A stretch of DNA of 64,000 nt from a virus. Lineage: Duplodnaviria > Heunggongvirae > Uroviricota > Caudoviricetes. The position numbers and the translations under genes were made by a program. Where the stretch lies: the IMG/VR virus record IMGVR_UViG_3300024265_000032, one strand, 5' to 3'. Shown here in pieces: positions 3,907 to 47,444 of this stretch. The first letter of the stretch is position 1; every line of letters starts with the position of its first letter. The notes beneath the pieces are model-generated. The model saw only the letters and a program-made list of their open reading frames with translations, made no database searches and was not told the DNA's origin.

Positions 3907-4200
3907 TTATGTGAATACCCTCCTCAAGTTGTCGTTCAATTGACGCTTCAGAGACTTGTCAACGCCCTCTCCCGTTGTCGTCTGGCCATTGCCTCTCGCC
4001 ACGATTTTGTAGTTACCGGCAAAGAGATAGGACGGTGATTTGCCCTTTTCTGCAATAACCCAAGCATTTCCTGGATTGTCACAAGACGTACCCTTGTACG
4101 ATTCTGGACATTCCACGACTATGTATCGCCTGCCTTTCCAGTCATCATAATCCCACGTAATCTCGATCGTATCCCCTGGCTTGGCATAGTCATCTGACAT
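3907..4200 (-). CDS. hypothetical protein (97 aa)
   Basis: ORF track; AAGG RBS. Confidence 0.5.
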   Translation of the reverse strand: MSDDYAKPGDTIEITWDYDDWKGRRYIVVECPESYKGTSCDNPGNAWVIAEKGKSPSYLFAGNYKIVARGNGQTTTGEGVDKSLKRQLNDNLRRVFT

Positions 4201-4215
4201 TTCGTGTACCTTCTT

Positions 4216-4446
4216 TCACGCTGGTCCTTGGTATTCCAACATGACCTGAATCAATCGACCGACGAAACCAATGCTGAATGAGTAGTCAGGGTGTGTGTTA
4301 ATGCTCCATGTGCCAACACTTTCAAATCGATGTAGAGTTCCAATGACTTCATCTCGCGAGATGATGTCGTACTCGATCACTTTCCCTTTACCGTTACTGA
4401 CTGCGGCCCTCAGAGACGGTACACCACTGTCCACAAGTATCTTCAT
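4216..4446 (-). CDS. hypothetical protein (76 aa)
   Basis: strong RBS GGAGGGGG upstream. Confidence 0.5.
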   Translation of the reverse strand: MKILVDSGVPSLRAAVSNGKGKVIEYDIISRDEVIGTLHRFESVGTWSINTHPDYSFSIGFVGRLIQVMLEYQGPA

Positions 4447-4643
4447 TTTCCCCCTCCACGTATTTCTGTTCCCAGAGTTTTGAGTCGATAATAGACAGTA
4501 CTCAAGGAGACGTTTGATTGTTCGGCGATTTTCTTGGCAGACATTCCTCCCTCATAACAATTTCTGGTCGCCATGAGAGTACACATTCTATGCCAAGTCA
4601 CTATGCTTTCTCCAAACCGAGCCGATTGATCAACAGCGACCAA
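4443..4643 (-). CDS. small HTH DNA-binding protein (sigma-70 region-4-like helix-turn-helix)
   Basis: segment MSAKKIAEQSNVSLSTVYYRLKTL resembles region-4/LuxR-type HTH. Confidence 0.45.
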   Translation of the reverse strand: MVAVDQSARFGESIVTWHRMCTLMATRNCYEGGMSAKKIAEQSNVSLSTVYYRLKTLGTEIRGGGK

Positions 4644-4817
4644 GTCTCGGAGATATCCAGAAGACTAAACCCGCCACGATCTTTGACTCCAACGATCTGC
4701 CACTCACAAAGAGTTTCGCAAAAACACAGGAACCCCATCAATCTTGAGTCTTTGTATATCGAATAAGTGATGACAAACCCGCGATGGCAAGTACCTGGCT
4801 TGAGAGAAATGTCCATC

Positions 4818-5048
4818 TTACCCTACCTTTCGCGCCATCCCACACTTTCGGACGAATCCAAGTAAACCCCATCTTATCGGGACTCTGGCTTTTGCCGCGT
4901 GCAGACAGATAGACAGAACAGTGAACACATGTATCGCCTGCTCATCCCCGGTAGGATTCGTGGACACTTCTTTTAAGTCATGCCACGCTTTGTTGTATCG
5001 CCTACAGAGATTCAGATATGCACGTTTATCTGACTTCTTGTACCTCAC
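4818..5048 (-). CDS. hypothetical protein (76 aa)
   Basis: ORF track. Confidence 0.3.
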   Translation of the reverse strand: MRYKKSDKRAYLNLCRRYNKAWHDLKEVSTNPTGDEQAIHVFTVLSICLHAAKARVPIRWGLLGFVRKCGMARKVG

Positions 5049-5290
5049 TACAGTTCGCCCACTTGTCTGGCCGTTTCGTCTATGAAATCCTGGCTTAGGC
5101 AGAATTTTCCCAGTGTGGAGAAATGGAGTCTGCCTGATACACTGTATATTTCACAAACGACTGTGACTACATCCCTGGTCGTGTGGACCGTATAATCAGG
5201 TCCAGTTTCGTCGTCACAAACCACCACTACGGGAGTACAATTGCTATTCACAAAGATCATTTCGCCACCTCCGAATTTGCCAGAATCCAC
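5048..5290 (-). CDS. hypothetical protein (80 aa)
   Basis: ORF track. Confidence 0.4.
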   Translation of the reverse strand: MDSGKFGGGEMIFVNSNCTPVVVVCDDETGPDYTVHTTRDVVTVVCEIYSVSGRLHFSTLGKFCLSQDFIDETARQVGEL

Positions 5291-5371
5291 ATGATTTCGT
5301 TCGCAGATAACCCCTCGTTTTCCAAATCGCCCCGAGTCAATCCCGTTAGGTCGATCTCCACCGCACTTGAA

Positions 5372-5842
5372 TTAGTCAACCAAGCTATCGTCCATGTCTT
5401 GTCCACATTCGGGACAGATTGGCCAACCAGATTCCCTTAAACAACTAAGGATTGTTGTTATGTTCATTTTGAGATGAGCCACCTTTTCGCATTTGGAACA
5501 TGTGAGTTCTACGTCAAACACATGTTTATGGGCGTAGTTCTTCAAGTGCTCGATCTGGCCGTCGATTCCTTTCGGAATAGGTAATACCGTGTTCCATCTT
5601 TGGTATTCGCGCCAACAATCGGGACAACAGAGGTGTGTCGTCTCTCCATCTGGAACTTCTGGGTTGTCGTGTGGTCTCCTATATCCGTTTCCAGTCCTTG
5701 CCTTTTCTATCGCCAACCCTTTTGTTGGCGCTCCAGGCATATTGTGATCAGGACGGTGGTTGCCAGACACACAAGTTGTTAATTTTCCGTTAACCCCACG
5801 AACTCCGTCACAGGTGGCTTTGTATACGACTTCTGTTGTCAT
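5372..5842 (-). CDS. multi-Zn-finger protein (~156 aa; start MTTEVVYK after GGAGGG)
   Basis: CCPDCW...CSKCEK...CPECG motifs; RBS GGAGGG before second Met. Confidence 0.5.
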   Translation of the reverse strand: MTTEVVYKATCDGVRGVNGKLTTCVSGNHRPDHNMPGAPTKGLAIEKARTGNGYRRPHDNPEVPDGETTHLCCPDCWREYQRWNTVLPIPKGIDGQIEHLKNYAHKHVFDVELTCSKCEKVAHLKMNITTILSCLRESGWPICPECGQDMDDSLVD

Positions 5843-6014
5843 TTTCGTACCCTCCAAAAACGACCGAATAAGGTAGATTTCCTACTACCGTTGGCTCTGC
5901 GCCAGTGGGTGGGTAATTCCCACTATTAACCCGTTGGACGCCTTACGGCTTACCCATCGACCCATCAGAGAGATGGTTATTCGGTTCCAAGCAAATATGA
6001 TAATAGCCAGATTT

Positions 6015-6829: not shown

Positions 6830-6902
6830 ACGGTCGGACAGGACTCGAACCTGCAACCTTCCCCCGACTGGGGATGCGCTGCCAATTGCGCCACCGACCT
6901 AG
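6830..6902 (-). tRNA. degenerate tRNA-like (Asp-like, GTC in a shortened anticodon loop); probable pseudo-tRNA
   Basis: reverse complement reads GGTCGGTGGCGCAATTGGCAGCGC...GGTTGCAGGTTCGAGTCCTGTCCGACC: canonical D-arm and T-arm (GGTTCGAGTCC) but the anticodon arm has only a 5-nt loop; T-arm region resembles the tRNA-Asp at 63262. Confidence 0.45.
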
Positions 6903-7891
6903 AAAAGACACGCGCCAACCCACCTTCACGCGCACTCAGACTATTGCGAGTTATTAGCCCGCAGTAGCTGACTCCCGACCCGTAGGTCCGTTCCTCTACT
7001 TTCTTTTGGATAACATCCAGGCAGATATAATCTGGCAATCTGTTTCTTCCCTGGATGGTTTCATGTATCCTTATTTTAACGACTATCCGAATCGAGACTG
7101 CCGCGCCAGTGCGGTTATCCAGTTTATTCGATCCGCCGTCGTGTCGTGTCGTTCGGGTGTATCCCAACTTTCCAATGACTCACAACTGCCCGCTGTGCGC
7201 CATCGAATGTGGCCTCAAGACAAGAATTGAACCGTGCCTCATATCCGACCCGCCGACCATCGGAAGTTTCAGCGAACTTCGTCCGACCATTGTGAGAGAA
7301 ATCAAAGAGGATTAGTTTACAAGACTTGCGCGAATGAGCCCCTATCCCACGACAAAAAAAGAGCCTATCACCTGACTGACGAGCGGTTTCCCGAGACGAT
7401 TCGAGAGATAGTAATACACGACAAAGACCCTTTGCTGTCTTGCTCCCACGGTGGCTGACACCCGGACCTTGCCAGACAGATAAGGAATCGTGTAGACGAA
7501 CCGTCACTTATATCCGCCCACGTCATTGACGTAGACTGAGTCTGCAATTCAGACTCTGCGTTTTGCCGCTTCTTGGACTGGCTTTTGACCGATAGCCTTG
7601 ACGATCCCGGTTCAGACCATTGACGCGCTTCCTGCGCCGTCGCCGACCGTACTGCGGAGACTACAGACCTACTCCCCAACCCATTCCGGGGATACCCGAC
7701 GCTTATCGGACTTCCCGCTGAAATTGGTTATGGGAACCGCTGACACTGATTCTAAGTGTGCCTATAACGACAGGGTGCTACCCTGACAAGCGGCTCTATC
7801 CTGACTTATGTCAGAATGTCCATCGTAAAGCGCCCCGACGATTCGAGGCGCTTCGAGTCAGACACTCTACTCGGACTGTGGACCGACGAGA

Positions 7892-8224
7892 CTAGACCTT
7901 GCCCAAATCCTTGAACGCCTTGCGCGTCGCGCCGGTTGTCGACCTGAGTCCCATAAGGGTCTCTGCGATCGTGGCCGCGTTATCGGACCCGAAACCCAGT
8001 TCACGGTCGGGGGTGTACTGACCACCCTCTACGACCTGACTTTCGAGCGATTCCCACGCTGCGGTCAGACCTGCGATGGCGTCATCGACGTTATCGTACC
8101 CCGAGCACGCATCGACAATTCGCTTGTGCTGACGATACGTGACGGCGTTTGCCAAAAACGCATCCTGACCGAACTTCTCGGACGTTCCTTGGGCATCATT
8201 CTTGACAGCGGTGTCAATGCTCAT
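7892..8224 (-). CDS. hypothetical protein (~111 aa, start MSIDT after GGGAGA)
   Basis: RBS GGGAGAAACGT-ATG; last minus-strand gene before the repeat region. Confidence 0.5.
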   Translation of the reverse strand: MSIDTAVKNDAQGTSEKFGQDAFLANAVTYRQHKRIVDACSGYDNVDDAIAGLTAAWESLESQVVEGGQYTPDRELGFGSDNAATIAETLMGLRSTTGATRKAFKDLGKV

Positions 8225-9039
8225 ACGTTTCTCCCGTATTGACTTGCCGCCCCAAGAGCCGAGACTACACCGTCCTGACTTATGGGACGGGCCTAGTAGA
8301 CTCGTTATCGGAACATCACTTATTCGGACCAACCTTGCGTCGGCCACTTATTATCGGTCCCTCGCGGGACTTCGGCTTGCGTCCGAGAATAACGAACCGG
8401 ACCTAGCGTCCGTTTTCGTTCTCTCGTTTTTCATCCTACATAATACTCTATGTAAAGTTATACAAAACGTCAAGCGCGGATTGAAAATAAATTTTCGGCC
8501 CTGAGAGCCGTCAATCGTCGATATTATCGCACTTTGTCCGATAATGCATGATTTGATTTACGTCCGCTTTTTGAGATCATTTATCGGTCAATTGCCTATA
8601 ATATCCCGTTTATCGCGCCCTAGAAGCTGATTCTTATCGGAAAGTCCTATAAGATGTGTTACGCGAGTCCTATAATGCGCGAATTATCGGCAAAAAGCGT
8701 CCTATAACCGTTAAAATCGCGATATTTTCGGTCGATTCCGATAAAAAAGCACGCCCTATAACGAAATCACGGTTAATTGGGTCAAAAACCATGATATTAT
8801 CACACGTACATAACGATTCCCGGAACGGTCCGATAATCCCGCCCCGCGCTACGTCCGATAACCCTCTGGGGGGAGGAAGGTCCGATAAGCAAGACGAGGA
8901 AGAGTCCGATAACCATTTGTCCACGAACGTCCGATAACACAGGGACCGATAACGAAAAACCCGCTTGGCCCGATAACGGGCATGGCGGTCCGATAACTGC
9001 TTTGTGGCTGGTCCGATAACCCATTCTGCGCCATACGAT

Positions 9040-9200
9040 ATTCTCGGCCCTATCCGATAAGTATTCGTGTCCACGCATACAAACCAAACTGTTATGTGCC
9101 ACGTCCGATAATCGCCCACGGCCCAACGTCCGATAATTTTCTGGTCTGCGCAAAGAAAAAGGTCCGATAATTCGGACCCCTGATCTTTTTAGTTATCACC
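9040..9200 (+). repeat. higher-order repeat copy 1 (~120-150 bp conserved core ending in near-palindrome GGTCCGATAATTCGGACC followed by T-run)
   Basis: ...aagtattcgtgtccacgcatacaaaccaaac...acgtccgataat...cggtccgataatt...gcgcaaagaaaaaggtccgataattcggacccctgatcttttt. Confidence 0.7.
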
Positions 9201-10229
9201 CCTTAAAGGATTGGTCCCATAATGTGCCGATTCGCATACTCCCGATAACCGCCACAAAGAGCGATAATCTTCCGAGTTGGAAGGACCGATAACACCCATT
9301 CCAGCGTCCCGACCGCACAGTCCGATAACTCCAAATGGTCCTGGGTATGGTCCGGTAACCTGTCTCGCAGAATTCCGTCAATTACCGGACGTTCCCACAA
9401 CGTCCCGAAGGCTGGTCCTATAATCAGGAAATCATCGGCTGTGGTCCTATATCTACACATGGTCTACTCCTTGTTATCGGCCCAAGAGGGGCGAGGTTCC
9501 GATAACCCCACCCGCTCTCCGTCCGATATTACATGCCAGCGGTTCCGATAAGCTCGCCCGGTGTCTTGATTATAGGACGACCCGAACTGATTTGGTCCCA
9601 TAATCTCAGGTCCACTTTGCCGACATTATCGGCGTCGTCAACGTCCGAAAACAACAGACAGCCGAAGTACCGATAATCGTTCGCCAGCCGTCTTTTCAGT
9701 GCTGCTTTAGCCCGATATTTCTTTGTTGCGAAGCTGCACATCCCATAAAGTGCGCTATGGAAAGGTCCGAGAACTTGGCACAACCACCCATTCTGTACTC
9801 GGACGTAGTTGTATCGGACTGTCTTTTTTCGGGCGCTCTTGAACTGGAGCACTGTGTCCGATAATACGACTCGACCTGTCTGTCCCATAACTGCCATGAT
9901 TGACTCCCGTCCTATAATTATTCCGACAATCGCCTCGCGATTATCAGACGTTCCCGCTTGCTGAACTTCCGATAACGTAATCGGGCCACCAAGCTGTTGT
10001 TAGTCCCATAACGTGCGCTCGCCCACAGGCCGAGTCCGATAAATCCATAAACTGCTACTTCAAAAGAATGCGCCATCAACCAGAGTCCGATAAAGATGAT
10101 GATCGGAAATGCGACACATCCCATTATCCATCCGATAATAATTGTCTCGCCTCCGGGCGCTTGACTATCGGATTTAACGTCCGATATTTTGCCGCTTGCC
10201 ACTAGGTCCGAATAGTCGATGAGTCCCAT

Positions 10230-10565
10230 AATTTATTCCCTTTCGTGCTTACACTGAAGTATAGGATACCTGCGCCGGAATGTCGAGCCGATAACCTATA
10301 AATCCAAAAAACTTTCTTCGTCCTATAATGTGCCCTTTTCTGTCCTGCTGCCCCATGCGTGCATTATATGCCACGCCCAATAATCCTCACGCCCCATAAC
10401 TTCGCCGCGCTACAAAACCGCGATTCTGAGCCCCAATCCGAATACTTATCGGCCACACATACGCACGCCAAACGATTACCGGCCACGTCCTATAATAACT
10501 CACGGCCCTACGGTCCGATAATGTTCTAATCGGCGCAAAAGAAAAGGGTCCGATAATTCGGACCC
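10230..10565 (+). repeat. higher-order repeat copy 2 (same core, ~1.39 kb downstream of copy 1)
   Basis: ccgaatacttatcggccacacatacgcacgccaaacgattaccggccacgtcctataat...ggcgcaaaagaaaagggtccgataattcggaccc; also shares the upstream segment cctttc..tgc(t)tcac..ac..tat.. with copy 3. Confidence 0.7.
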
Positions 10566-11669
10566 AGTGTTATTCTAGTTATCGGTCCATCGGCGAGATG
10601 GGCTCATGGTCCGAAAACAATTCGAGATGCCGAACCGCGATCGGTCCGATAATTTCTTCCCATCGTCGCTTCATGTCAGTTATCGGTCGTACCGGCTCAC
10701 CGTTGAGCGCATCCAACATTCCGATAATCTCCCGTTTTTCGGTGTTATCCAACGTCTGATAACATTCAATGGAAACCTTGTTTTGGTCCCAAAACCAATG
10801 TAGTTTCTGGACCATATGGAAACGTCCGATACCTTCCGGCTTCCTGCTGAGCCGATAATTGCCACTTGTTATCGGAGTACGAGAGTACGTCCGAATAATC
10901 GAAATCCCATGTGGAGAATAGTGAAAAACCAACATATTATCGCTCCTTGATTGCCAGTTGTGCCGTCCGATAATTCGTATGTAAACGTCCGATAGTGATT
11001 CGGTTACGCACCGTATCATGTCCGATAAGCCGTATCGAACCGGATGTAAGTGTTACTGTAACGAAGCCATCTTGTTCCGATAACGTCCTGGCGAACAGCG
11101 TCCCATAACTCATCGCCATCTGGTCCGATAAGTTAGTCTCGTGCGCCTCTGGGCAATTATCGGTCGCCGGAATCGTGATCGTTGCACGTCCCATAATATC
11201 CTCCTTTAGAACCATAGTCCGAGAACTGTGATGATAATCGTGTGTCCGATAACCATCATCCAGAATTGTTTTTCGCGTCCCATAATACTACTCCGTAAAG
11301 CACTGGAAAGAACAGTCCGGTAATCCTCGATACTGCGAATTCCGGAAATTGTTGGACCCATAACATCCGCATTGCCACCATCCTGCGATGGCTGAATTTC
11401 GGACCAAACCCTGTCCGCAATTAGGACACTTGCCCGTAGAAACGACCGATATTGCCTCGGCTTTGCATTCGGCAAGGCGTTTTTTATCACACGTAAGGCA
11501 CGTCCCAGAATAACGGCTTCTCACGCGCCCACAACGACATTTTAATCTGAGTCCCATAATTATCCCTTTCTGTGCCACTGTCCGGTAACATCGTACAGAT
11601 CGGCTGCGGTCATCGGAAGTTTAGGTCCGAAAAAAAACTCTTTGATTGTCGTCAGCAAACGTCTCATAA

Positions 11670-11905
11670 TTATCCCCTTTTTGCTTCACTACATTATACG
11701 ATTCAAAAACCAGGAAATCAAGCCCGATAACCAACTATTACAAAATTCTTTTTTCGTCCTATAACTATGGCCATGGCTAGCCGTCAGCCCCGAAACGTCG
11801 TTATTACAGGGACCGTCTTATAAGTATTCACGTACACGACCACAGACCAAACGATTACCCGGACCGTCCGATAATGCCCTCACGGCGGTCCGATAACTAC
11901 TACTC
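11670..11905 (+). repeat. higher-order repeat copy 3 (partial)
   Basis: cgtcttataagtattcacgtacacgaccacagaccaaacgattacccggaccgtccgataatgccctcacggcggtccgataac; ~1.36 kb after copy 2. Confidence 0.65.
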
Positions 11906-13032
11906 TACTGCTGAACGTCTGATAACTAGATGAGAGAGAGAAGGTCTGATAACTAGAACTGTCGCTGCGAGGTGTTGGTCTGATAACTACTGCTGCTTGG
12001 TAGTCCGATAACCTCACGATACTGGCAAACGCAAAGGGCCGATAACTCGACCCCATTCGGCGCGTCGTCTTTGTTATAGGACGCAATGGAAAGCGTCCGA
12101 TACTGCTATGCCGTACTGGCACGTCTCATAACTTGGCCAGTTTATCGGAAGTCTAGGAGCATGGTCGTAATTATCGGTCGTTTCTACGATGTCGGCGTCG
12201 ATGTCCGATAACCATTTCAGAAAGTCTGATAACCAAATGGTTGGAATTACTGCATACTCGGACCACCACTTATCGGAACCGCAAACCTCTTCGGCGATCT
12301 TGGTCCGATATTTCACAAATGTCATTTGCATGTTATTGGCCCATCCCATAACAGTTGTTGTTATCGGAGCACACGAAGTGGCCACTGTTCGGTCCGATAA
12401 CTCCGATGCCTTCGGCGGTCCGATAAAGTTTTAGGTCACATCCGGATGTTAGTCCGATAAGAGCCAGGATCACGAGTCGTCCGATAATCTTCATTTCGAT
12501 TCTTCGCTCGTTGCGAGGTTATGTCCGATAACTCTAGCCACCGATGGCTGCTTGAATTTCGGACGTTACATGAGAGAAGAGTCCCATAACTTTAGAAACA
12601 ACGACCCAACCGATAGTGGCCGTCACTGCGAGTCCGATAAGTTTGGTGGTCATGGCTTTGCCTTTCGTTCGTTTGGTGTCTCTATCCTATCTACATGATA
12701 GCATTAGTTATACCGAATAGCAAGAGAAAAGGAAAAGAATCTTTTGGTCCGATAACTCGCCTTGCTCGTCGAGCAAGCAAGGTCTGATAACAAGCTGATA
12801 GCATAGTCTGATAACAAAAGGAAGGTACTAGTCCGATAACGGAACTCGGTTGGGGGTCGCCCGGAAATATGGATAGGTCCGATAACTCGGGTGGGTCCGA
12901 TAACCCATGGGGGTTTAGGCACAACAGGGTCAAAAAAGCCAGAGCCTACAACTTTTCGTGTACATGATATCTAACCCAGAGCCCATTCGCTTTACCCCAT
13001 ACACTTTTTTCCCAAAAAAAATCGAAGACACT

Positions 13033-13082: not shown

Positions 13083-13232
13083 ATGTTGACGAAGAAACAA
13101 CGAGACGAGATTCGCAAAGGACTTGTTCATTGTGATTTAAGTCCCTTGGATGAGAGCGAACGTAACCTAGAAACTTGCCTCAACGATCTAGACGAGAAAG
13201 ACATCATCATCAAGCAATTCGAAAATGAGTGA
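13083..13232 (+). CDS. small acidic protein (49 aa, MLTKKQRDEIRKGL...)
   Basis: AAGGAG RBS 8 nt upstream; preceded by TATAAT. Confidence 0.4.
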   Translation: MLTKKQRDEIRKGLVHCDLSPLDESERNLETCLNDLDEKDIIIKQFENE

Positions 13233-20142: not shown

Positions 20143-20517
20143 ATGGAAGAAGCTTACGGGAAAGAATTGATTCTCGATCTTAGTATGTGCGATATTTCGA
20201 CATTCAACCGAGAGTCTATCGGTAATTATTTCGACGCTCTGTGCAAACTCATTGATATGCAAGCAGAGGATCGACATTTTTGGGATGACGAAGGCTTGTC
20301 AGAAGAAGAATGTCAAACCGATCCTAAGACAACGGGTGTGAGTGCTGTGCAGTTCATTCTTACCAGCACGATCGTATTGCATTCTCTGCCGAAGCTTGGT
20401 AAGGTTTTTATCAACATATTCTCCTGCAAGGACTTTGACCAAGAGCAGGCTTGCATGTTCACGGTTGAATGGTTCGGCTCCCAAAAGTTCAGGCGACATG
20501 TTGTGGAGAGGCGATAG
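20143..20517 (+). CDS. S-adenosylmethionine decarboxylase (SpeH, class 1b)-fold protein with non-canonical processing site
   Basis: GKELILDLSMC (cf. GKH/LILDLYGC) and GVSAVQFILTSTIVLHSLPKLGKVFINIFSCKD (cf. GVSGVVLLAESHISIHTWPE...VDVFTCG); the Glu-Ser self-cleavage pair is replaced by Thr-Ser-Thr. Confidence 0.55.
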   Translation: MEEAYGKELILDLSMCDISTFNRESIGNYFDALCKLIDMQAEDRHFWDDEGLSEEECQTDPKTTGVSAVQFILTSTIVLHSLPKLGKVFINIFSCKDFDQEQACMFTVEWFGSQKFRRHVVERR

Positions 20518-20520
20518 ACA

Positions 20521-21789
20521 ATGCGTATTATTGAACGATCGGTAATTCTCGACAGCCTCTGTGAAATTGAACATCTTGGTCGCGAGATGTTGATATACCA
20601 TAGAGAAATTCTTGTACGTTTTGTTGTAGAAGAGATCAAGGATCATAGGTTCTATTGTAGTGTAAGTGCTATTGCTGATATTGCTGATATTCCGCTCAAT
20701 TCTAGATTTTTATCAGATGCTCCCAATTTCAAATCAAATCCGAATATAACAAATGATGATAAATTTCGTGTAGCCTTAGTTATTCCGACAGGCTTGGGTG
20801 CTTCTGTTGGTGGCAATGCCGGTGACGGTGGTGCTACCGCAAGGCTTATGGCTTCCGTTTGTGACAAATTGATTACGCATCCCAATGTGGTTAACGCTTC
20901 TGACTTTAACGAGATGACCGATAACACTCTGTACGTCGAAGGGTATACATTAACACAATACCTACTAGGGCATATTGGTTTACAAGAAGTGCGACAGAAT
21001 CGTGTTATTGTCGTTGTTGATGGCTCTGCCGAGCCCGCATATATTCATGCTGCTATCAATGCCGTCAATGCTGCCCGCGTTACTTATGGATTCGATTGTC
21101 TAAAGGTAGTCGTACTAGATGACCCCTTCGTCATGGAAACCGGTTGGTCTAGCCATGGTCGTGCAGCGGGTAGTGTCGCCAACCTGGGCCAATTGTTTGA
21201 GGTACTAGAAAGAGAACGAGATTCGTATGATGCTATCGCATTAACGTCACTCATTGGTATTCCAGATAAAGATCGTGATCATTACTACAAGCATGGTGGA
21301 GTGAATCCGTGGGGCGGTGTTGAAGCCATGCTTACACATGCCGTGTCTCATGTCTTTGGAGTGCCATGCGCTCATGCTCCCATGATGGAGTCACAAAAGA
21401 TAGACAATATGGATTTTGGAATAGTTGATCCGCGATGTTCGGCTGAAACTGTTTCAGTTACGTATCTACCATGTGTTCTGAAAGGACTTAATCGTGCTCC
21501 ACGTATTGTTGACTCTAGTCCCGACATATCATGCTTGGTCATTCCACAAAGATGTTTAGGTATTCCAATGTTGGCTGCATACGACAGAGATATACCCATT
21601 GTTGTTGTCGATGATGAACTTGAGGTTGACGATGTAAATTGTCTTGATCACATTGAGGCGATATCTGTTGATAACTATGTCGAAGCCGTTGGCGTTGTTG
21701 CAGCGATGAGGGCTGGCATTAGTGTTGAATCGCTTGGTCGTCCGATCGGAAGCGTAGAGGTTTGTAGGGAGGGATCATCAAATGATTGA
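20521..21789 (+). CDS. conserved hypothetical protein (422 aa) with Gly-rich PTGLGASVGGNAGDGGATARL motif; translationally coupled to the AdoMetDC-like gene
   Basis: long ORF; ATAGACAATG junction with upstream gene; family not recognised with confidence. Confidence 0.6.
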   Translation: MRIIERSVILDSLCEIEHLGREMLIYHREILVRFVVEEIKDHRFYCSVSAIADIADIPLNSRFLSDAPNFKSNPNITNDDKFRVALVIPTGLGASVGGNAGDGGATARLMASVCDKLITHPNVVNASDFNEMTDNTLYVEGYTLTQYLLGHIGLQEVRQNRVIVVVDGSAEPAYIHAAINAVNAARVTYGFDCLKVVVLDDPFVMETGWSSHGRAAGSVANLGQLFEVLERERDSYDAIALTSLIGIPDKDRDHYYKHGGVNPWGGVEAMLTHAVSHVFGVPCAHAPMMESQKIDNMDFGIVDPRCSAETVSVTYLPCVLKGLNRAPRIVDSSPDISCLVIPQRCLGIPMLAAYDRDIPIVVVDDELEVDDVNCLDHIEAISVDNYVEAVGVVAAMRAGISVESLGRPIGSVEVCREGSSND

Positions 21790-25839: not shown

Positions 25840-26081
25840 CAACAGATGACCCGAGAAGAAGAGCTAACAAGATCGTTATGGACCTGTGTTATCGTATCGA
25901 GAGAATGTGTCGTTACTCTGCGTTAGGAGACAAAGAGGTTGATGATCAATCCATGACCGACAGAAAAACCGTAGAGGGACTCTATGTCTTTTACCGCAAG
26001 AATGGTAATGATGAAAATTCTGCCGCCAGACAAGCTAGGGTTAACGCTATTCGTCTTGTGCTGAATGAGGTTTTTTCATGA
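25836..26081 (+). CDS. hypothetical protein (81 aa)
   Basis: ORF track; ATGA overlaps. Confidence 0.5.
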   Translation: MTTDDPRRRANKIVMDLCYRIERMCRYSALGDKEVDDQSMTDRKTVEGLYVFYRKNGNDENSAARQARVNAIRLVLNEVFS

Positions 26082-26887
26082 AACCTACCTGGATAATACA
26101 GACAAATATGGAAGGTGTCGACACTGGTCCGATGGTCGATGTCGTCAGTGCTCAGGGGATGTTGGCAATACCAATAGAACACACGACAGGAATGCTTTAT
26201 GATTTTAGTCCATACGATCATCAAGACTGTATTCTTTTCTACGGCGACATAGATTTTGTGCGACAAGTTCAAAAGACAGCACCGTTCATTCCGGGTGCTT
26301 GGTGTAATTTCTACAACATGAAATGCAGTACATACTACGCATATTTTGGCGAGCAACTATTGAACAAAAACTACATTATGATGCCAGTTGGTGATCTACT
26401 AAGAAGGTGGGATGAGTTTGTGATCCCTGGTTATCCACATGTATTTGTTCGACCCGACAGTGGTGCGAAGCCGTTCTCTGGACACGTTATCAAATACGGA
26501 GAAAAGCACAAAATCCAAGCGATCATAGAGACGGTTGGTCCTGAGACTTTGGTTGTTGTAGCCCCAAGTAAGCCGATAGTATCAGAGTATCGTTTCGTGA
26601 TTTGTGAAAAAAAGGTTATTGCTGGATGTCAATATCTGCCGGTTGAACTACCTATTTACCCAACCCCCTCTTTGCGTCTTGCCTGTGTTATAGCGAATCA
26701 CGATTGGCAACCTGATTTGTGCTACACGGTGGACATAGCTGAACATGACGGTCAAATGTATCTTCTCGAAATCAACAGCTTCAGTTGCGCAGGTTTGTAC
26801 CAGTGTGATATCGGTGTTGTTGTTCAGTATGCCTCGTTGGCAGCTAAGTTTGAATGGAATGATTACGTTGATCCCATCAACAATTAG
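26078..26887 (+). CDS. ATP-grasp-like protein (269 aa)
   Basis: EYRFVICEKKVIAGCQY ... MYLLEINSFSCAG resembles the ATP-grasp C-terminal E-x-N catalytic loop region. Confidence 0.45.
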   Translation: MKPTWIIQTNMEGVDTGPMVDVVSAQGMLAIPIEHTTGMLYDFSPYDHQDCILFYGDIDFVRQVQKTAPFIPGAWCNFYNMKCSTYYAYFGEQLLNKNYIMMPVGDLLRRWDEFVIPGYPHVFVRPDSGAKPFSGHVIKYGEKHKIQAIIETVGPETLVVVAPSKPIVSEYRFVICEKKVIAGCQYLPVELPIYPTPSLRLACVIANHDWQPDLCYTVDIAEHDGQMYLLEINSFSCAGLYQCDIGVVVQYASLAAKFEWNDYVDPINN

Positions 26888-28410: not shown

Positions 28411-28845
28411 TTATACACCGTAGTCCGTGGCCAGATTTTCGTATTTATCAGGGTCTTCATCCGCCTGTCTGTGGCATTCAGCACACAGATACAGCAAAAA
28501 GAAGGGTCTGGAGTGATCTGGGTGGTGTCCTTGGATGTTTTTTTCGGACATGCAAAGTTCGCATTCATCTAGTGGGACGAGTTTCCCCGTTTTTACAGCC
28601 TGACGGACAAGGTATCGGGCGTGTTCCTTTTCGGGGAATTTTTCCTTGTCTCTTCTGGTTTGTTCTGCATTCGGGGTTGAAGGGTCACATCGGCGGTTTT
28701 CATTGGTCAGCTTGGAAGCGCATGATCGTGAACAGGTGTGTTTTTGTCCTATCTTTACGGTCTGTTTGATGCGACTTTCTTCTTTTTCGAAAGGTTCCCT
28801 ACACCATTCACAATTAACCGTTCGGGTATCGACCATTATTGCCAT
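28411..28845 (-). CDS. HNH-like Zn-finger nuclease candidate (144 aa)
   Basis: CEWCR...CSRSC...ECELCMSEKNIQGHHPDHSRPF..LCAECH. Confidence 0.5.
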   Translation of the reverse strand: MAIMVDTRTVNCEWCREPFEKEESRIKQTVKIGQKHTCSRSCASKLTNENRRCDPSTPNAEQTRRDKEKFPEKEHARYLVRQAVKTGKLVPLDECELCMSEKNIQGHHPDHSRPFFLLYLCAECHRQADEDPDKYENLATDYGV

Positions 28846-29759
28846 GCTTTCAAATTACGTTGGGCATATCGGTCTTTATAGATTATAGCCCTTGGGTTTG
28901 ACAGAACGGCATCTGCAATGATTTCATTGTACAGAGTGTGAATTTGGTTAACTGGTGGTTTATCAGGTAGATCACTACCTTTCTCTGCATTGTTGGCGTC
29001 GAGTTTAGCGTATTCGTAGAGCGTAGATACTTCATCCAAATTCAATTCACCCTGCTTTATAGATAAAAGCAATTCTGCGCGAGGACAAGGAAATGTAATG
29101 TTACCTGTGTCCATGAGTTCTTTGAGTTGATCAAGCAATCTGATTGTATGACACGCGCTGGAAGTACAATAACCATGCAACTTTATTTGTTTTTTCCGCT
29201 TAGCACCCAGTTTGCGATTTGTCTTGCGAGTTTCCATTTGATGATTCATAAATAAAAGACGTATGATTTCATCCATCGATTCTTTCCCTGGATGAAATAC
29301 TTGTCGTATGTTCTCGACCACTGTATCTTCATTGGATGTTCTCTTGATAGGGACGAGTTGAGTACCCGTGACTTTTCTCCATTCTGATTCTGCATATCCC
29401 CCGATGCGTCTGGCAAATTGCTTACATGCAAATAATGATCTGTTACGAAGAACAGTACCTCCAACATCTGTTCGCTCAATGATATTTGGCTCGGGTGCAA
29501 ATAGAATTTCATAGCATAATGGATCGCCGCTAATTAGAAGTTCGAAAAATCGTTTGAGAGAATATATCACGATATCTGGTTCTCTAATGACTTTTTGCTC
29601 GAATCGAGCTAAGCCAGCAAGATACTCGAAAGGGGGTATAGTGAATCCTCGATAGTCGTGATCACTTTCTTGCGTTTTGGTACCGTACAATCTAGACCCA
29701 GCCATTACGAGAAAATCTGGATTGTCGATACTGCGAGTGAGTTCTGCTTCTTTGTTCAT
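28836..29759 (-). CDS. Pol-beta superfamily nucleotidyltransferase (PF10127/RlaP-like candidate)
   Basis: MAGSRLYGTKTQESDHDYRGF = hG[GS]...DhD nucleotidyltransferase motif. Confidence 0.55.
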   Translation of the reverse strand: MNKEAELTRSIDNPDFLVMAGSRLYGTKTQESDHDYRGFTIPPFEYLAGLARFEQKVIREPDIVIYSLKRFFELLISGDPLCYEILFAPEPNIIERTDVGGTVLRNRSLFACKQFARRIGGYAESEWRKVTGTQLVPIKRTSNEDTVVENIRQVFHPGKESMDEIIRLLFMNHQMETRKTNRKLGAKRKKQIKLHGYCTSSACHTIRLLDQLKELMDTGNITFPCPRAELLLSIKQGELNLDEVSTLYEYAKLDANNAEKGSDLPDKPPVNQIHTLYNEIIADAVLSNPRAIIYKDRYAQRNLKAWQ

Positions 29760-37570: not shown

Positions 37571-38576
37571 GACTGCTTTTATCACTGGTGTGACAGGACA
37601 GGACGGTAGTTATCTGTCAGAGTTCCTATTAAATAAGGGATACAAGGTTTACGGCTTGATTCGTAGATCATCTGTCGATACGAAAGAGCGAATTCTCGAT
37701 TTCATGTATCATCCAAAGTTCGAGTTGGTTGAGGGAGACATAACCGACGCATCTTGTATGAACAGGTTGATTTCTGGAATTAAGCCAGATGAGGTGTACA
37801 ATCTGGCAGCTATGAGCCACGTTGGTGTTTCTTTTGACCAGCCCATCACAACCTGTCAGATAGATGCGATAGGCCCATTGAACATTCTTGAGGCAATCCG
37901 TCAGTCGTCGCCCCACAGCAAATTCTATCAAGCCAGCACGTCTGAACTATTTGGAGATACGAAGATCGCACCACAATCCGAACTAACTCCGATGACACCA
38001 AATTCTCCTTATGCAGTAGCCAAGCTCTATGCCCATCACCTAGTTGGCCTTTACCGTCGTGCCTATGGCATTTTCGCATGTGCCGGTATCCTGTTTAATC
38101 ACGAATCAGAGCGTCGTGGAGAAGCTTTTGTCACTCGTAAGATCACTAAGTACGTTGCAAGCTTGCGAAGTTGGATGGATAATAACGGAGGATTTCCAAC
38201 CAAGGATGTTGATATTCTTCCATTGGCCCTAGGGAATATAGAAGCCAAGAGGGATTGGTCCCATGCTCTAGACATGGTTCAGGGAATGTGGCTTATGATG
38301 CAGTGTGATGAGCCAAATGATTACGTTCTTGGCTCAGGCGAAGCCCATACCGTGAGAGAATTTTTGGAAATTGCTTTCAAATCAATAGGTCTTGATTACA
38401 GGGATTACGTAGTGATTGATCCTCAGTTTTATCGTCCAGTCGATGTTAATCTTTTACACGCAGATGCAACCAGAGCTAAGGAAGTTTTGGGATGGCAACC
38501 AACAATTGGTTTCGGAGAAATGATAGATCGGATGGTTCAGAGTGATTATGGATCGAGGATAGAATGTCGCGCCTAA
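37542..38576 (+). CDS. gmd: GDP-mannose 4,6-dehydratase
   Basis: AFITGVTGQDGSYLSEFLL (NADP Rossmann), ...SELFG..., NSPYAVAKLYAHHLVGLYRRAYGIFACAGILFNHESERRG (YxxxK and GMD-specific NHESERRG). Confidence 0.9.
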   Translation: MKVTQEKTNKTAFITGVTGQDGSYLSEFLLNKGYKVYGLIRRSSVDTKERILDFMYHPKFELVEGDITDASCMNRLISGIKPDEVYNLAAMSHVGVSFDQPITTCQIDAIGPLNILEAIRQSSPHSKFYQASTSELFGDTKIAPQSELTPMTPNSPYAVAKLYAHHLVGLYRRAYGIFACAGILFNHESERRGEAFVTRKITKYVASLRSWMDNNGGFPTKDVDILPLALGNIEAKRDWSHALDMVQGMWLMMQCDEPNDYVLGSGEAHTVREFLEIAFKSIGLDYRDYVVIDPQFYRPVDVNLLHADATRAKEVLGWQPTIGFGEMIDRMVQSDYGSRIECRA

Positions 38577-39109
38577 TTTTACCCACATACACCGTCATCA
38601 GAGATACTCGTGAGCAGAAGGATCACGGATGGACGTTTCCTGCGCATCATCCGAATAGAAGACCGCCAAAGTGTGACGGGACAATTAGCGAAAAGTTGGA
38701 TACCGGAGACTATAGTATGGTAGGATATACCGACATATTCTCCATTGAGAGAAAGGCTGATTTTGCAGAACTTTGGCAGAATTACAGCAGCCAGAAGAGG
38801 CCAGCTTTTGAGGCAGAAATGAAACGCATGTCTCATATTAAACACAGATTCATTATTGTTGAATCGCTGTACACTCCAGATATCATGGAGTTATCTCCAC
38901 CGCAGTTTACGAAGGGTGTTCCTGGGAAATCTTTCGTCAGATGGTTGATGTACATATCTGTTAAGTATAATGTCAACATTATCCCAGCGGGGGCTTGTGG
39001 GAGAAAGATCGCACAAATGCTTTGTGAAGAAGTTGTGCGTGTGACTAAGGATCGTTGGGTTCTACAGGAACCAAAAAGCAAGGATCAGGAGGATTGTCTT
39101 GGTAACTAG
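38564..39109 (+). CDS. ERCC4 (XPF/Mus81/Hef)-type nuclease candidate
   Basis: IRDTREQ ... LDTGDY ... SIERKADFAEL = D-x-RE / GDY / ERKxxxD nuclease motifs. Confidence 0.5.
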   Translation: MSRLILPTYTVIRDTREQKDHGWTFPAHHPNRRPPKCDGTISEKLDTGDYSMVGYTDIFSIERKADFAELWQNYSSQKRPAFEAEMKRMSHIKHRFIIVESLYTPDIMELSPPQFTKGVPGKSFVRWLMYISVKYNVNIIPAGACGRKIAQMLCEEVVRVTKDRWVLQEPKSKDQEDCLGN

Positions 39110-47051: not shown

Positions 47052-47444
47052 ATGTCACTAAACAATACAGAAGTGAAGAAAGAGTATTCATTTGGCAAAA
47101 GCTGTGCTGAAGTGGCAGCATTAGATGGTTGTAGCGAAACATCTATGTACAACCGAATGAGAGATTTGGGGGTCACCATGAGAAGTCGTTCAGAAGCGAA
47201 TCAACTTTTCCCAAATTCTGTTTTCATACTGCTTTACAATCTTGGTCTTTCCACTTCTCAAATCGGGAGACTTTTGGGTGTAAATTCATCAACCGTGACT
47301 AAAAGACTACATCTTCTGAAGTTCCCTTTACGATCACGCCGTGTAGCTAGCCGCATACGATATACGGAAGAAGAGTTTAACCAATACTTTATGGTACCGG
47401 ATATTCTTGATCAACTCTCGAAATTGGTTTGTGCAACAGTCTAA
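47052..47444 (+). CDS. double-HTH DNA-binding protein (region-4-like HTH x2); candidate late regulator
   Basis: CAEVAALDGCSETSMYNRMRDLGV and LSTSQIGRLLGVNSSTVTKRLHLL. Confidence 0.5.
   Translation: MSLNNTEVKKEYSFGKSCAEVAALDGCSETSMYNRMRDLGVTMRSRSEANQLFPNSVFILLYNLGLSTSQIGRLLGVNSSTVTKRLHLLKFPLRSRRVASRIRYTEEEFNQYFMVPDILDQLSKLVCATV

What the first reader, a model, noticed from the sequence alone, without database searches (positions are those of the whole stretch)
8300..12910. 4.6-kb ORF-free array of >80 GTCC[G/T/C]ATAA[C/T] motifs at the point of divergent transcription
A 9-10 bp motif (GTCCGATAAC/T, with GTCCTATAA and GTCCCATAA variants) recurs in both orientations roughly every 20-60 bp across 4.6 kb. 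In the densest stretches (8820-9060, 11880-12910) copies sit about two helical turns apart. The region separates the minus-strand gene block (ending 7892..8224) from the plus-strand block (starting ~13083). The only ORFs inside it are artefacts of translating the repeat (recurring YRT/IGP peptides). This density of a single protein-binding-site-like motif is well beyond ordinary promoters and looks like iterons at a replication origin, a partition/centromere array, a pac-type packaging signal, or a titration sink for a host or phage DNA-binding protein. No replication initiator or ParB gene is visible in this window, so its partner protein is unknown.
Basis: seen in the sequence. Interest (0 to 1): 0.85.

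Follow-up and report, generated by a model that had tools for sequence, protein, structure and literature searches.

The report
Phage array of recombinase half-sites
A large uncultured phage carries about 100 copies of a 9-10 bp motif, laid over its early genes, that is identical to the half of the bacterial chromosome-resolution site dif bound by the XerC recombinase; this suggests a new way for phages to recruit or soak up a host DNA recombinase, although binding has not been shown.

Summary
The motif array is real and far beyond chance: 62 exact copies against 1.5 expected, and about 127 with one mismatch allowed, within 5.3 kb. About 80% of copies share one orientation, which flips near 8640. 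There is no helical phasing. The region is not ORF-free. It is a stack of four leftward sigma-70 promoter/terminator units encoding small proteins, several conserved in related phages, and motif copies inside genes are conserved at synonymous sites.

The same array sits at the same junction in all relatives examined (160-180 kb phages). Compact or variant forms occur in at least two unrelated phage lineages that share no protein in the sequence available, so the binder is probably host-encoded.

The motif GTC[C/T][G/C/T]ATAA equals the XerC-binding arm of dif in Acidobacteria, delta-proteobacteria, Nitrospirae, Chlamydiae and Flavobacteria. Every array variant occurs in natural dif sites, and the absent A variant does not. 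The compact arrays contain one dif-like core (arm-N6-TTATGT). An acidobacterial genome has three such half-sites upstream of its xerD-xerC genes.

Best reading: a multi-site landing pad or sink for a Xer-type recombinase. This is inferred, and the host is unknown. Origin, pac and centromere readings are poorly supported. A phage HTH/operator reading remains a rival.

The parts
7703..12905 (.). Whole motif array: about 127 sites (one mismatch allowed) of (C/G)GTC[C/T][G/C/T]ATAA[C/T]
7703..8642 (-). Left arm, with sites in minus orientation (TTATCGGAC on the top strand). It includes three sites (7703, 7980, 8280) whose 300/277-bp spacing is conserved in relatives.
8536..12905 (+). Right arm, with about 100 sites in plus orientation. 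It is expanded relative to relatives (4.4 kb against 2-2.5 kb).
8536..9140 (+). Dense non-coding sub-array upstream of promoter P1 (about 20 sites, spacing about 25 bp). ORFs here are repeat artefacts.
11756..12047 (+). Dense non-coding sub-array between terminator T4 and promoter P3
12747..12905 (+). Dense sub-array upstream of P4, next to the strand switch
8445..8473 (-). Promoter P1, TTGACG-17-TAGAGT, with a 220-nt leader to gene 7892..8224
10258..10286 (-). Promoter P2, TCGACA-17-TATACT
11693..11721 (-). Promoter P3, TTGATT-17-TATAAT
12695..12723 (-). Promoter P4, TTGCTA-17-TATCAT (with TG)
9158..9181 (-). Intrinsic terminator whose hairpin (GGTCCGAATTATCGGACC) contains the motif
10546..10565 (-). 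Intrinsic terminator, same design
12035..12054 (-). Terminator-like hairpin, same design but weaker
7892..8224 (-). 110-aa early gene conserved next to arrays in relatives (38-60% identity). No Pfam family.
9529..9897 (-). 122-aa conserved gene inside the array. It has 28 homologs. Motif copies in it are conserved at synonymous sites.
9918..10229 (-). 103-aa gene with a strong SD sequence and a homolog in L048
10937..11215 (-). 85-92-aa gene with homologs in L024 and L184
11288..11578 (-). 89-96-aa Cys-rich (zinc-ribbon-like) ORF with a strong SD sequence. No homolog found.
12074..12385 (-). About 100-aa gene with homologs in L048, L042 and L184
12333..12653 (-). Two small ORFs after P4: 39 aa (hydrophobic) and 53 aa (lipoprotein-like N-terminus). 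Called from the sequence only.
9055..9200 (.). Conserved junction element J1 (terminator plus ACCAAACGATTACC box plus 3 motif copies). It is repeated at 10440-10586 and partly at 11819-11900, giving a 1385-bp cassette period.
8667..8692 (.). Only convergent arm pair near the orientation flip: GTCCTATAA-N8-TTATCGGCA. It is not a canonical dif core.
4443..4643 (-). 66-aa stand-alone HTH_7 (resolvase-type HTH) protein, the rival candidate binder

Best explanation
The region is the early, leftward-transcribed gene stack of a large phage. Overlaid on it is a dense array of about 100-130 isolated half-sites of the type bound by a Xer-family tyrosine recombinase, namely the XerC arm of dif.

Shown: the array is real. 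It is conserved in position and architecture in related phages. It is under DNA-level selection even inside genes. It is shared in compact or variant form by unrelated phage lineages that share no protein in the sequence available. Its sequence spectrum is identical to that of natural XerC arms.

Inferred: each half-site binds one monomer of the host's XerC-type recombinase. The sites lack a partner arm, so no strand exchange follows. The array then acts as a high-capacity landing pad or sink on the first-expressed part of the phage genome. It would either withdraw XerC from the host (blocking dif recombination, or Xer-dependent mobile elements) or coat the early-promoter region with recombinase.

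The even site density in coding and non-coding DNA, and the variable array length among relatives, suggest that the number of sites matters more than their exact placement.
For: Enrichment and anatomy.

Conservation: the same array, variant spectrum, orientation flip and three positionally conserved reversed sites occur in relatives L284-L287, L048 and L024. Codon identity at same-amino-acid columns is 0.83 inside motif copies against 0.48 outside, and 44 of 70 sites are retained in homologs of 37-74% identity.

Host factor: family 2 (L091, L092, L035 and others) and L289 carry arrays but share no detectable protein with family 1. No recombinase or HTH_7 was found among 125 array-flanking ORFs.

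Xer identity:
- dif XerC arms are ACGTCCGATAA, AGGTCCGATAA, ACGTCCCATAA and TTGTCCTATAA in delta-proteobacteria (PMC2731167).
- They are ATGTCCGATAA (Ellin345) and ACGTCTGATAA in Acidobacteria, with similar arms in Nitrospirae, Chlamydiae and Flavobacteria (PMC3025954 supplement).
- Counts among predicted dif sites: GTCCGATAA 16, GTCTGATAA 19, GTCCCATAA 8, GTCCTATAA 6, GTCTCATAA 5, GTCCAATAA 0. This mirrors the array, where A never occurs at that position.
- Compact arrays contain one arm-N6-TTATG(T) core at the orientation flip: 11 at spacer 6 against 0-4 at other spacers, with 0.8 expected.
- L143 (Korobacteraceae MAG) has three ATGTCCGATAA half-sites within 100 bp upstream of tandem xerD/xerC-like genes.
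- L289's array uses only T/C variants, as expected if a different host has a different arm.

Precedent for non-recombinational Xer half-site-like loci: XerD-only sites that unload SMC (discussion in PMC9226527).
Against: - No binding data exist, and the host is unknown. MAG labels are inconsistent: Planctomycetaceae, Korobacteraceae and a Heimdallarchaeota bin.
- The window has no full dif-like core.
- From prior knowledge (not tested here), XerC in E. coli binds isolated arms weakly and depends on XerD cooperativity.
- No comparable irregular arrays exist for the beta/gamma-proteobacterial arm TTCGCATAA, so this is not a general phage strategy.
- The same 9-mer also matches the Tn3 resolvase site I half-site (PMC4499144). 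This shows that a 9/9 identity to a known site can be coincidental.
- The family-2 cores come partly from related phages, giving about 5-6 independent lineages, and one relative has CTATGT.
- The L143 operator-like arrangement is a single case.
- The benefit to a lytic phage is speculative.
- Only about 64 kb of a roughly 160-kb genome was seen, so a phage-encoded recombinase or other binder elsewhere is not excluded.
Confidence: 0.4

Rival explanations
1. Operator or 'stoperator'-like array for a phage-encoded DNA-binding protein, either the 66-aa resolvase-type HTH at 4443..4643 or another early or middle protein. Monomers would bind the asymmetric sites across the early units and shut off or time transcription from the four strong early promoters.
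For: The sites coincide with promoters and transcription units and are mostly in one orientation relative to transcription. The window encodes an HTH_7 protein (E = 3.7e-7). Tn3 site I is TGTCTGATAATTTATAAATTATCAGACA, so GTCTGATAA equals an array variant. A monomeric HTH fits isolated half-sites. Arrays in other families also adjoin near-consensus promoters.
Against: The HTH has no relatives in IMG/VR by the tool's method. None is present in L024 or other relatives that keep the array. No HTH_7 or shared protein lies near arrays in the other lineages. The T of the resolvase consensus TGTCYNNTA (recalled, not checked here) is the least frequent base before GTC (8 of 81). Resolvase-type pair spacing is not enriched. 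Orientation is mixed in L289 and in family 2.
Confidence: 0.25
2. Binding array for some other host DNA-binding protein that is not Xer. The similarity to the XerC arm would then be coincidental or reflect a shared ATAA-rich preference.
For: Unrelated phages share the motif without sharing proteins. The Tn3 coincidence shows that 9-mer matches occur.
Against: This does not explain the arm-N6-TTATGT cores, the variant spectrum matching natural arms including the missing A, or the half-sites upstream of xerD/xerC.
Confidence: 0.15
3. Replication origin with iterons, at the point of divergent transcription.
For: The cumulative GC-skew minimum and the strand switch are at about 12.9 kb. Direct repeats are present, along with AT-rich promoter regions.
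Against: No initiator or helicase-loader gene was found in the window ORFs scanned. There is no helical phasing. About 100 sites over 5 kb, including inside conserved genes, is unlike iteron origins. The skew switch is explained by the change in coding strand. In family 2 the array heads the operon that leads to the terminase genes.
Confidence: 0.07
4. Packaging (pac) signal, genome-end structure or partition centromere.
For: Several contigs of relatives start or end in or near the array (L047, L048, L039, L111). Family-2 arrays lie 4-5 kb upstream of terL with two divergent arms, which recalls P1 pac.
Against: In the window, terL and the gene just upstream of it (38564..39109) are 26 kb away. 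The terminase-region genes of the two families are not detectably homologous, yet the motif is identical. No ParA, ParB or ParR gene was found. Contig breaks are expected at repeats.
Confidence: 0.06
5. RNA-level element: repeated UUAUCGGAC in the early transcripts acts as a sponge or processing signal.
For: About 80% of copies are in the sense orientation of the leftward transcripts. The terminator hairpins use the motif.
Against: The sub-array upstream of P4, and the compact arrays of family 2, lie upstream of promoters and are bidirectional. L289 has mixed orientation.
Confidence: 0.04

Closest known systems
dif, the XerC/XerD chromosome-dimer resolution site (and plasmid cer, psi and pdif sites)
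   Same: The 9-bp core of the array motif is identical to natural XerC arms, with the same permitted variants. The compact arrays of another phage family contain an arm-6 bp-TTATGT core, as in dif.
   Different: In the window there is no XerD arm, no central region and no paired site. There are about 100 copies instead of one. They lie within transcribed and coding DNA of a phage. No recombination is implied.
XerD-only binding loci (XDS) of B. subtilis and S. aureus that unload SMC complexes
   Same: These are Xer binding at loci other than dif, independent of the partner recombinase, with a non-recombinational role. Their architecture of one full arm, 5-6 bp, then 5 inner bp resembles the family-2 cores.
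   Different: Those are XerD arms, few in number and chromosomal. The sites here are XerC-type arms, in the hundreds, and in the window they lack even the inner 5 bp of a second arm.
Titration loci such as E. coli datA (DnaA) or P1 incA (RepA)
   Same: Clusters of binding sites whose function depends on capacity rather than on exact position.
   Different: Those have 5-9 sites for a replication initiator. This array has about 100 sites, probably for a recombinase, and overlaps genes.
Stoperators of cluster A mycobacteriophages (L5, Bxb1)
   Same: Asymmetric sites, many copies, and an orientation bias relative to transcription (from prior knowledge, not checked here).
   Different: Stoperators are 13 bp, scattered genome-wide in intergenic gaps, and bound by the phage repressor. 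This array is local and dense, lies inside genes, and has no cognate phage repressor identified.
Tn3 / gamma-delta res sites
   Same: The site I half-site TGTCTGATAAT contains an array variant exactly, and a resolvase-type HTH gene is present in the window.
   Different: There is no resolvase catalytic domain, no 28/34/25-bp paired subsites, the leading T is not conserved, and the HTH is not conserved with the array.
IMEX attP sites (CTXphi, VGJphi, TLCphi)
   Same: Phage DNA that mimics dif arms so as to use host Xer. TLCphi attP also has a degenerate XerD arm.
   Different: Those are single sites used for integration by small filamentous phages. No integrated copies were seen here (contigs are at most 80 kb), and the window has only half-sites.

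Membership tests
dif / Xer core recombination site | An 11-bp XerC arm matching known arms | tested here: met
   The 9-bp core is identical to arms listed in PMC2731167 and the PMC3025954 supplement. The variant spectrum matches, including the absence of A.
dif / Xer core recombination site | A 6-bp central region followed by a XerD arm (TTATGTHAANT) | tested here: not met
   No site in the window or in close relatives has arm-N6-TTATG. Only family-2 arrays have arm-N6-TTATGT, without the outer XerD arm.
dif / Xer core recombination site | Single copy, non-coding, at the replication terminus | tested here: not met
   About 100 copies, half of them in coding DNA.
dif / Xer core recombination site | Bound and cleaved by XerC/XerD | not testable with these tools
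   Needs EMSA, ChIP or recombination assays with host proteins.
XerD-only SMC-unloading sites (XDS) | A bona fide XerD arm, 5-6 bp, then the 5 innermost bp of a second arm | tested here: not met
   The arm is XerC-type and there is no inner 5-bp partner in the window. Family-2 cores share only the layout.
Iteron replication origin | An adjacent initiator gene, an AT-rich unwinding element and phased iterons | tested here: not met
   No initiator among the ORFs scanned, no phasing, and sites inside genes.
Stoperator / operator array | A cognate phage repressor gene conserved with the sites | tested here: inconclusive
   The only nearby HTH (4443..4643) is not conserved in relatives. Only 64 kb of about 160 kb was seen.
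Stoperator / operator array | One orientation relative to transcription | tested here: met
   101 '+' against 26 '-' sites, with leftward transcription. Orientation is mixed in L289 and family 2.
Tn3-family res site | Inverted TGTCYNNTA pairs at res-type spacing, next to a resolvase gene | tested here: not met
   T before GTC in 8 of 81 sites. Convergent pairs are few and not peaked at 8 bp. The window has only an HTH_7 domain with no catalytic domain.
pac site / terminase recognition | Located in or next to terS/terL and recognised by TerS | tested here: not met
   terL is at 39099, 26 kb away. The motif is shared by phages whose terminase regions are not detectably homologous.
parS / plasmid centromere | An adjacent parA/parB or parM/parR operon | tested here: not met
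   No such Pfam families among the ORFs scanned.

The most novel reading that the evidence does not exclude
Several unrelated phage lineages carry 'Xer sponges': arrays of tens to more than a hundred XerC-arm half-sites placed at their strongest early promoters. These would sequester or recruit the host's chromosome-dimer-resolution recombinase. The purpose could be a host-takeover or anti-competitor device (blocking dif recombination and cell division, or blocking Xer-dependent satellites and IMEX elements), or assembly of a recombinase-DNA scaffold on the incoming genome. The compact versions with a dif-like core would be the ancestral, recombination-competent form. An array of XerC half-sites upstream of a bacterial xerD-xerC operon hints that half-site binding is also used by the host for autoregulation.
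Probability: 0.3. Interest if true: 0.9.

Novelty: new variant of a known kind. Interest (0 to 1): 0.78.

Why it matters
Arrays of protein-binding sites are known (iterons, centromeres, stoperators, datA). I found no description of a phage array built from recombinase half-sites, kept at about 2.5 sites per 100 bp even through protein-coding genes, and recurring in unrelated phages without a phage-encoded partner.

If the binder is host XerC, this would be a DNA-based way for phages to manipulate a conserved chromosome-maintenance system. It would also extend the recently recognised non-recombinational roles of Xer proteins.

It makes a testable prediction: the array variant should predict the host's dif arm. 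That would also make the array a host-prediction marker for uncultured phages.

Even if the binder turns out to be a phage protein, the strength of DNA-level selection inside genes makes this a clear case of overlapping sequence codes.

Tried and rejected
1. Genome-wide scan for triple motifs in bacterial and archaeal genomes. I first read it as a pan-phylum feature. Most hits proved to be regular tandem repeats with periods that are multiples of 3. I rejected these as unrelated. Only L184 (a relative of this phage in a Heimdallarchaeota-labelled MAG), L178 and L143 were informative.
2. Control scans for arrays of other arms. TTCGCATAA gave only tandem repeats. GTCCTATAA and GTCTGATAA gave mostly tandem repeats, plus L289 and family-1 relatives.
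3. Search for a protein shared between array-bearing families: none. A Pfam scan of 125 array-flanking ORFs found no recombinase or HTH_7. A second batch of 124 ORFs was not scanned.
4. The 66-aa HTH as binder: no relatives found. Its best PDB match is an uncharacterised tandem-HTH protein.
6. Looking for integrated family-2 prophages split at the core: terminase homologs occur only on contigs of 80 kb or less and without organism names. This is inconclusive.
7. BLAST of the region against GenBank phages: no match.
8. My first synonymous-site test was circular. I replaced it with a one-sided mask.
9. L238, a perfect 9-bp tandem of the motif 1.8 kb from a xerD-like gene, was set aside as probably coincidental.
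10. My recollection that gamma-delta site I is TGTCCGATAAT could not be verified in the library. Only the Tn3 sequence is cited.


Full report
**1. Observation.**
The motif is real and highly non-random. GTCCBATAA occurs 62 times in the 64-kb window against 1.54 +/- 1.10 in dinucleotide-preserving shuffles, and all but two copies lie in 7703-12903. A position count over 81 relaxed instances gives (C/G)-G-T-C-(C 71/T 10)-(G 57/C 14/T 10/A 0)-A-T-A-A-(C 36/T 31), with no information in the flanks. Allowing one mismatch there are 101 sites on the + strand and 26 on the - strand in 7600-12950. That is about 24 per kb, against 0.65 per kb in the rest of the window.

- The motif is not equally in both orientations. 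Sites left of about 8640 are almost all in minus orientation and sites to the right almost all in plus, so the array has two divergent arms.
- There is no 10-11 bp phasing. Spacing has a floor of 15 bp and a broad mode around 25 bp.
- The region is not ORF-free (section 2).

**2. What the region is.**
The consensus scan finds four sigma-70-type promoters on the minus strand with 17-bp spacers, at 8473..8445, 10286..10258, 11721..11693 and 12723..12695. It also finds three minus-strand intrinsic terminators, at 9181..9158, 10565..10546 and 12054..12035, whose hairpins are built from the motif itself. Each promoter is followed by small ORFs with strong Shine-Dalgarno sequences.

Several of these are real genes.
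- The 122-aa ORF 9529..9897 has 28 homologs at 51-91% identity in the protein database.
- ORFs 7892..8224, 9918..10229, 10937..11215 and 12074..12385 have translated matches in related phage loci.
- None matches a Pfam family.

A conserved junction element of about 145 bp (terminator plus an ACCAAACGATTACC box) recurs with a 1385-bp period. The stack therefore looks like reiterated cassettes.

The window is a phage: terminase large subunit at 39099-41228, portal at 41297-43435, and tail genes. It is only about 25% identical to any GenBank phage terminase. The rightward block begins at 13083, and the cumulative GC-skew minimum falls there. This is explained by the change in coding strand.

Site density is the same in intergenic segments (1.9-3.1 per 100 bp) and in coding segments (2.4-2.8 per 100 bp).

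**3. Conservation and selection.**
Terminase relatives in IMG/VR include contigs of 160-181 kb. The array is present at the syntenic position in every relative for which that region was retrieved: L024, L042, L047, L048, L060, L111, L184 and L284-L287. They share:
- the same variant spectrum (GTCCGATAA > GTCCCATAA, GTCTGATAA, GTCCTATAA > GTCTCATAA);
- the same orientation flip;
- three reversed sites around the 110-aa gene at conserved spacing (300/277 bp here, 300/278 and 289/278 in L286 and L284).

Array length varies from about 2-2.5 kb to 4.4 kb here, so the window holds an expanded version. L048 has the same run of co-directional near-consensus promoters.

Inside the 122-aa gene, motif copies occupy conserved positions in different reading frames (VIGQ, LSD, LYG). 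At alignment columns with the same amino acid, the codon is identical in 83% of comparisons inside motif copies against 48% outside (odds ratio 5.3). Also, 44 of 70 sites are retained in homologs sharing 37-74% protein identity. An earlier version of this test was circular. The comparisons are not phylogenetically independent, but the effect is large. The motif is selected as DNA, not as peptide.

**4. The same motif in unrelated phages.**
A scan of viral contigs found about 39 loci with irregular arrays of at least 6 sites per kb.

A second phage family (L011, L029, L035, L091, L092, L099, L104, L280, L281) has contigs up to about 80 kb and an SU10-type capsid gene. It has compact arrays of 300-500 bp with about 15 sites in two divergent blocks. 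These lie about 130-190 bp upstream of a near-perfect promoter (TTGACA-17-TATAAT in L280) that heads the operon leading to the terminase genes.

A third lineage (L289) has a 3-kb array of 33 sites that uses only T/C at the variable position.

No protein is shared between family 1 and family 2 in the sequence available. L289 has no homology to either. A Pfam scan of 125 ORFs flanking arrays outside family 1 found no recombinase, resolvase or HTH_7. A shared host factor is the simplest explanation.

**5. What the motif matches.**
A literal search of the paper library for the 9-mer returned mostly primers, plus one relevant paper. In Carnoy and Roten's table of proteobacterial dif sites, the XerC arms are:
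- Anaeromyxobacter: ACGTCCGATAA
- Myxococcus: AGGTCCGATAA
- Geobacter: ACGTCCCATAA
- Desulfovibrio: ATGTCCCATAA
- Syntrophus: TTGTCCTATAA

Alpha, beta and gamma lineages use TCGCATAA or GCGCATAA (PMC2731167).

The supplement of Kono et al. extends this to Acidobacteria (Ellin345 ATGTCCGATAA-C; A. capsulatum ACGTCTGATAA), Nitrospirae, Chlamydiae, Flavobacteria and Corynebacterium. Counts among predicted dif sites are GTCCGATAA 16, GTCTGATAA 19, GTCCCATAA 8, GTCCTATAA 6, GTCTCATAA 5 and GTCCAATAA 0 (PMC3025954). Every variant present in the array is therefore a natural XerC arm, and the one absent from the array is absent from dif sites.

Two further observations point the same way.
- In the compact arrays there is one site, at the orientation flip, with the layout of dif: arm, 6 bp, then TTATG(T). 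Over 838 motif copies, TTATG follows at spacer 6 eleven times, against 0-4 at other spacers and 0.8 expected. These come from about five or six independent lineages. The outer XerD arm is not conserved, and one relative has CTATGT.
- In a Korobacteraceae (Acidobacteria) MAG, three direct copies of ATGTCCGATAA lie within 100 bp upstream of a tandem pair of genes with the Phage_integrase plus SAM-like architecture and the catalytic-region motifs I recognise as typical of XerD/XerC. These copies match the Ellin345 XerC arm 11/11 but have no XerD arm. This is a single case.

The literature notes that Xer-DNA contacts are mainly with the inner 5-7 bp. It also notes that XerD-only loci (one arm, 5-6 bp, five inner bp) unload SMC complexes independently of XerC (PMC9226527). 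Non-recombinational binding at partial sites therefore has precedent.

**6. Counter-evidence and the main rival.**
- The window and its close relatives have no full core. The nearest things are GTCCTATAA-N8-TTATCGGCA at 8667-8692 and a degenerate site in L024.
- No irregular arrays exist for the beta/gamma arm TTCGCATAA.
- The host is unresolved. MAG labels attached to relatives are inconsistent.
- The same 9-mer also occurs in the Tn3 resolvase crossover site TGTCTGATAATTTATAAATTATCAGACA (PMC4499144), and the window encodes a 66-aa stand-alone resolvase-type HTH at 4443..4643. This makes a phage-encoded monomeric HTH a serious rival.
- Against that rival: the HTH has no detectable relatives in IMG/VR and is absent from L024, which keeps the array and 7 kb of the equivalent flank. 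The T of the resolvase consensus is the least frequent base before GTC. Res-type pair spacing is not enriched.
- Only 64 kb of a roughly 160-kb genome is visible, so a binder encoded elsewhere cannot be excluded.

**7. Mechanism proposed.**
Shown: a conserved, selected, localised array of asymmetric sites over the early-promoter stack, with a sequence spectrum identical to XerC arms, shared by unrelated phages.

Inferred: monomers of a Xer-type recombinase, most simply the host's XerC, occupy the half-sites. Without partner arms there is no synapsis or cleavage. The array then works by capacity. The evidence for this is even density, variable length, positional turnover and tolerance of mixed orientation in other lineages. 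It would act as a sink or as a recombinase coat on the first DNA to be expressed.

Which consequence matters (loss of dif recombination, interference with Xer-dependent mobile elements, promoter insulation, or interaction with FtsK or SMC-type machines) cannot be decided here.

I put about 0.5 on a Xer-type binder, about 0.3 on the sink or landing-pad function, and 0.4 on the combined statement as worded.

**8. Other readings.**
Origin, pac or terminus, centromere, RNA-level and artefact readings were considered and are given low weight. The reasons are listed under rival explanations.

**9. Novelty.**
Binding-site arrays and titration loci are known kinds, so I file this as a new variant. The combination seen here is not something I found described: recombinase-arm half-sites, about 100 copies, maintained through coding sequence, at the early promoters of lytic-looking phages, and recurring across unrelated lineages without a phage partner.

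Noticed in passing
window 60432-60782 (+), 63090-63335 (+) and 6830-6900 (-): The phage encodes a full-length tmRNA (Rfam 137 bits; tag peptide GESQFRMAA) and a tRNA cluster (Phe, Ala, Asp), plus a lone tRNA-Asp in the leftward block.
   Followed up: no
L143 3600-3800 (Korobacteraceae MAG JBEKBO010000002.1): Three direct ATGTCCGATAA(TGCGCA) repeats lie within 100 bp upstream of tandem xerD- and xerC-like genes. These are XerC-arm half-sites without a XerD arm, and the layout suggests autoregulation of a xer operon.
   Followed up: partly
L091, L092, L099, L104, L035, L029, L280 (for example L092 4050-4095): The compact arrays of a second phage family contain a conserved module: GTCCGATAA-N5-GTCCGATAA-N6-TTATGT-N9/10-TTATCGGAC. 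This is a dif-like core with a degenerate XerD arm. No integrase lies nearby, so it could be an IMEX-like attP or a multimer-resolution site.
   Followed up: partly
L280 3300-3345; L092 3770-3815; L035 5075-5100: Between the compact array and its promoter, family-2 phages share a second short repeat of the type TTTGAAAATT / TTTCAAAATTCAAAAA. It may be an UP element or the site of another protein.
   Followed up: no
L129-L131 (family-1 terL) and P0003, P0007-P0012 (family-2 terL): Terminase large-subunit genes are interrupted in many relatives. In family 1, 600 aa are spread over 2.9 kb. In family 2, proteins of about 840 aa carry LAGLIDADG/Hint domains (PF14528, PF05204), which indicates inteins or introns.
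   Followed up: no
window 20143-21789 (+) and 26078-26887 (+): An S-adenosylmethionine decarboxylase-like gene is followed by a DUF3326 gene, with an R2K-type ATP-grasp gene nearby. The first pair is conserved next to the array in relatives (L284, L285). This may be a polyamine or DNA/protein-modification module.
   Followed up: no
window 28836-29759 (-) and 61795-62763 (+): There is an RlaP-type nucleotidyltransferase ('RNA repair pathway') and an RNA ligase. Together with the tmRNA and tRNAs, they suggest investment in countering translation-targeting defences.
   Followed up: no
window 47821-50133 (+) and 51123-54074 (+): Two large paralogous tail-fibre-like proteins share an N-terminus (SASGILNS..V.FYHPLD) and internal blocks.
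   Followed up: no
L184 (CP070695.1, 'Candidatus Heimdallarchaeota archaeon' chromosome) 4000-5900: A relative of this bacterial-type phage region (40 sites, homologs of three array genes) sits in a record labelled as an archaeal chromosome. Mis-binning or a chimeric assembly is the likely explanation.
   Followed up: no
L124 18595-20379 and L121 18760-20013: Family-1 relatives encode proteins with four tandem HTH domains weakly similar to the window's 66-aa HTH, near the structural genes. The window has only a two-HTH protein at 47052-47444.
   Followed up: no
P0121-P0148: Most contigs that carry homologs of the array-embedded 122-aa gene are only 0.5-6 kb long. This suggests that assemblies routinely break in this repeat-rich region, so such arrays are probably under-represented in metagenomic phage genomes.
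   Followed up: no
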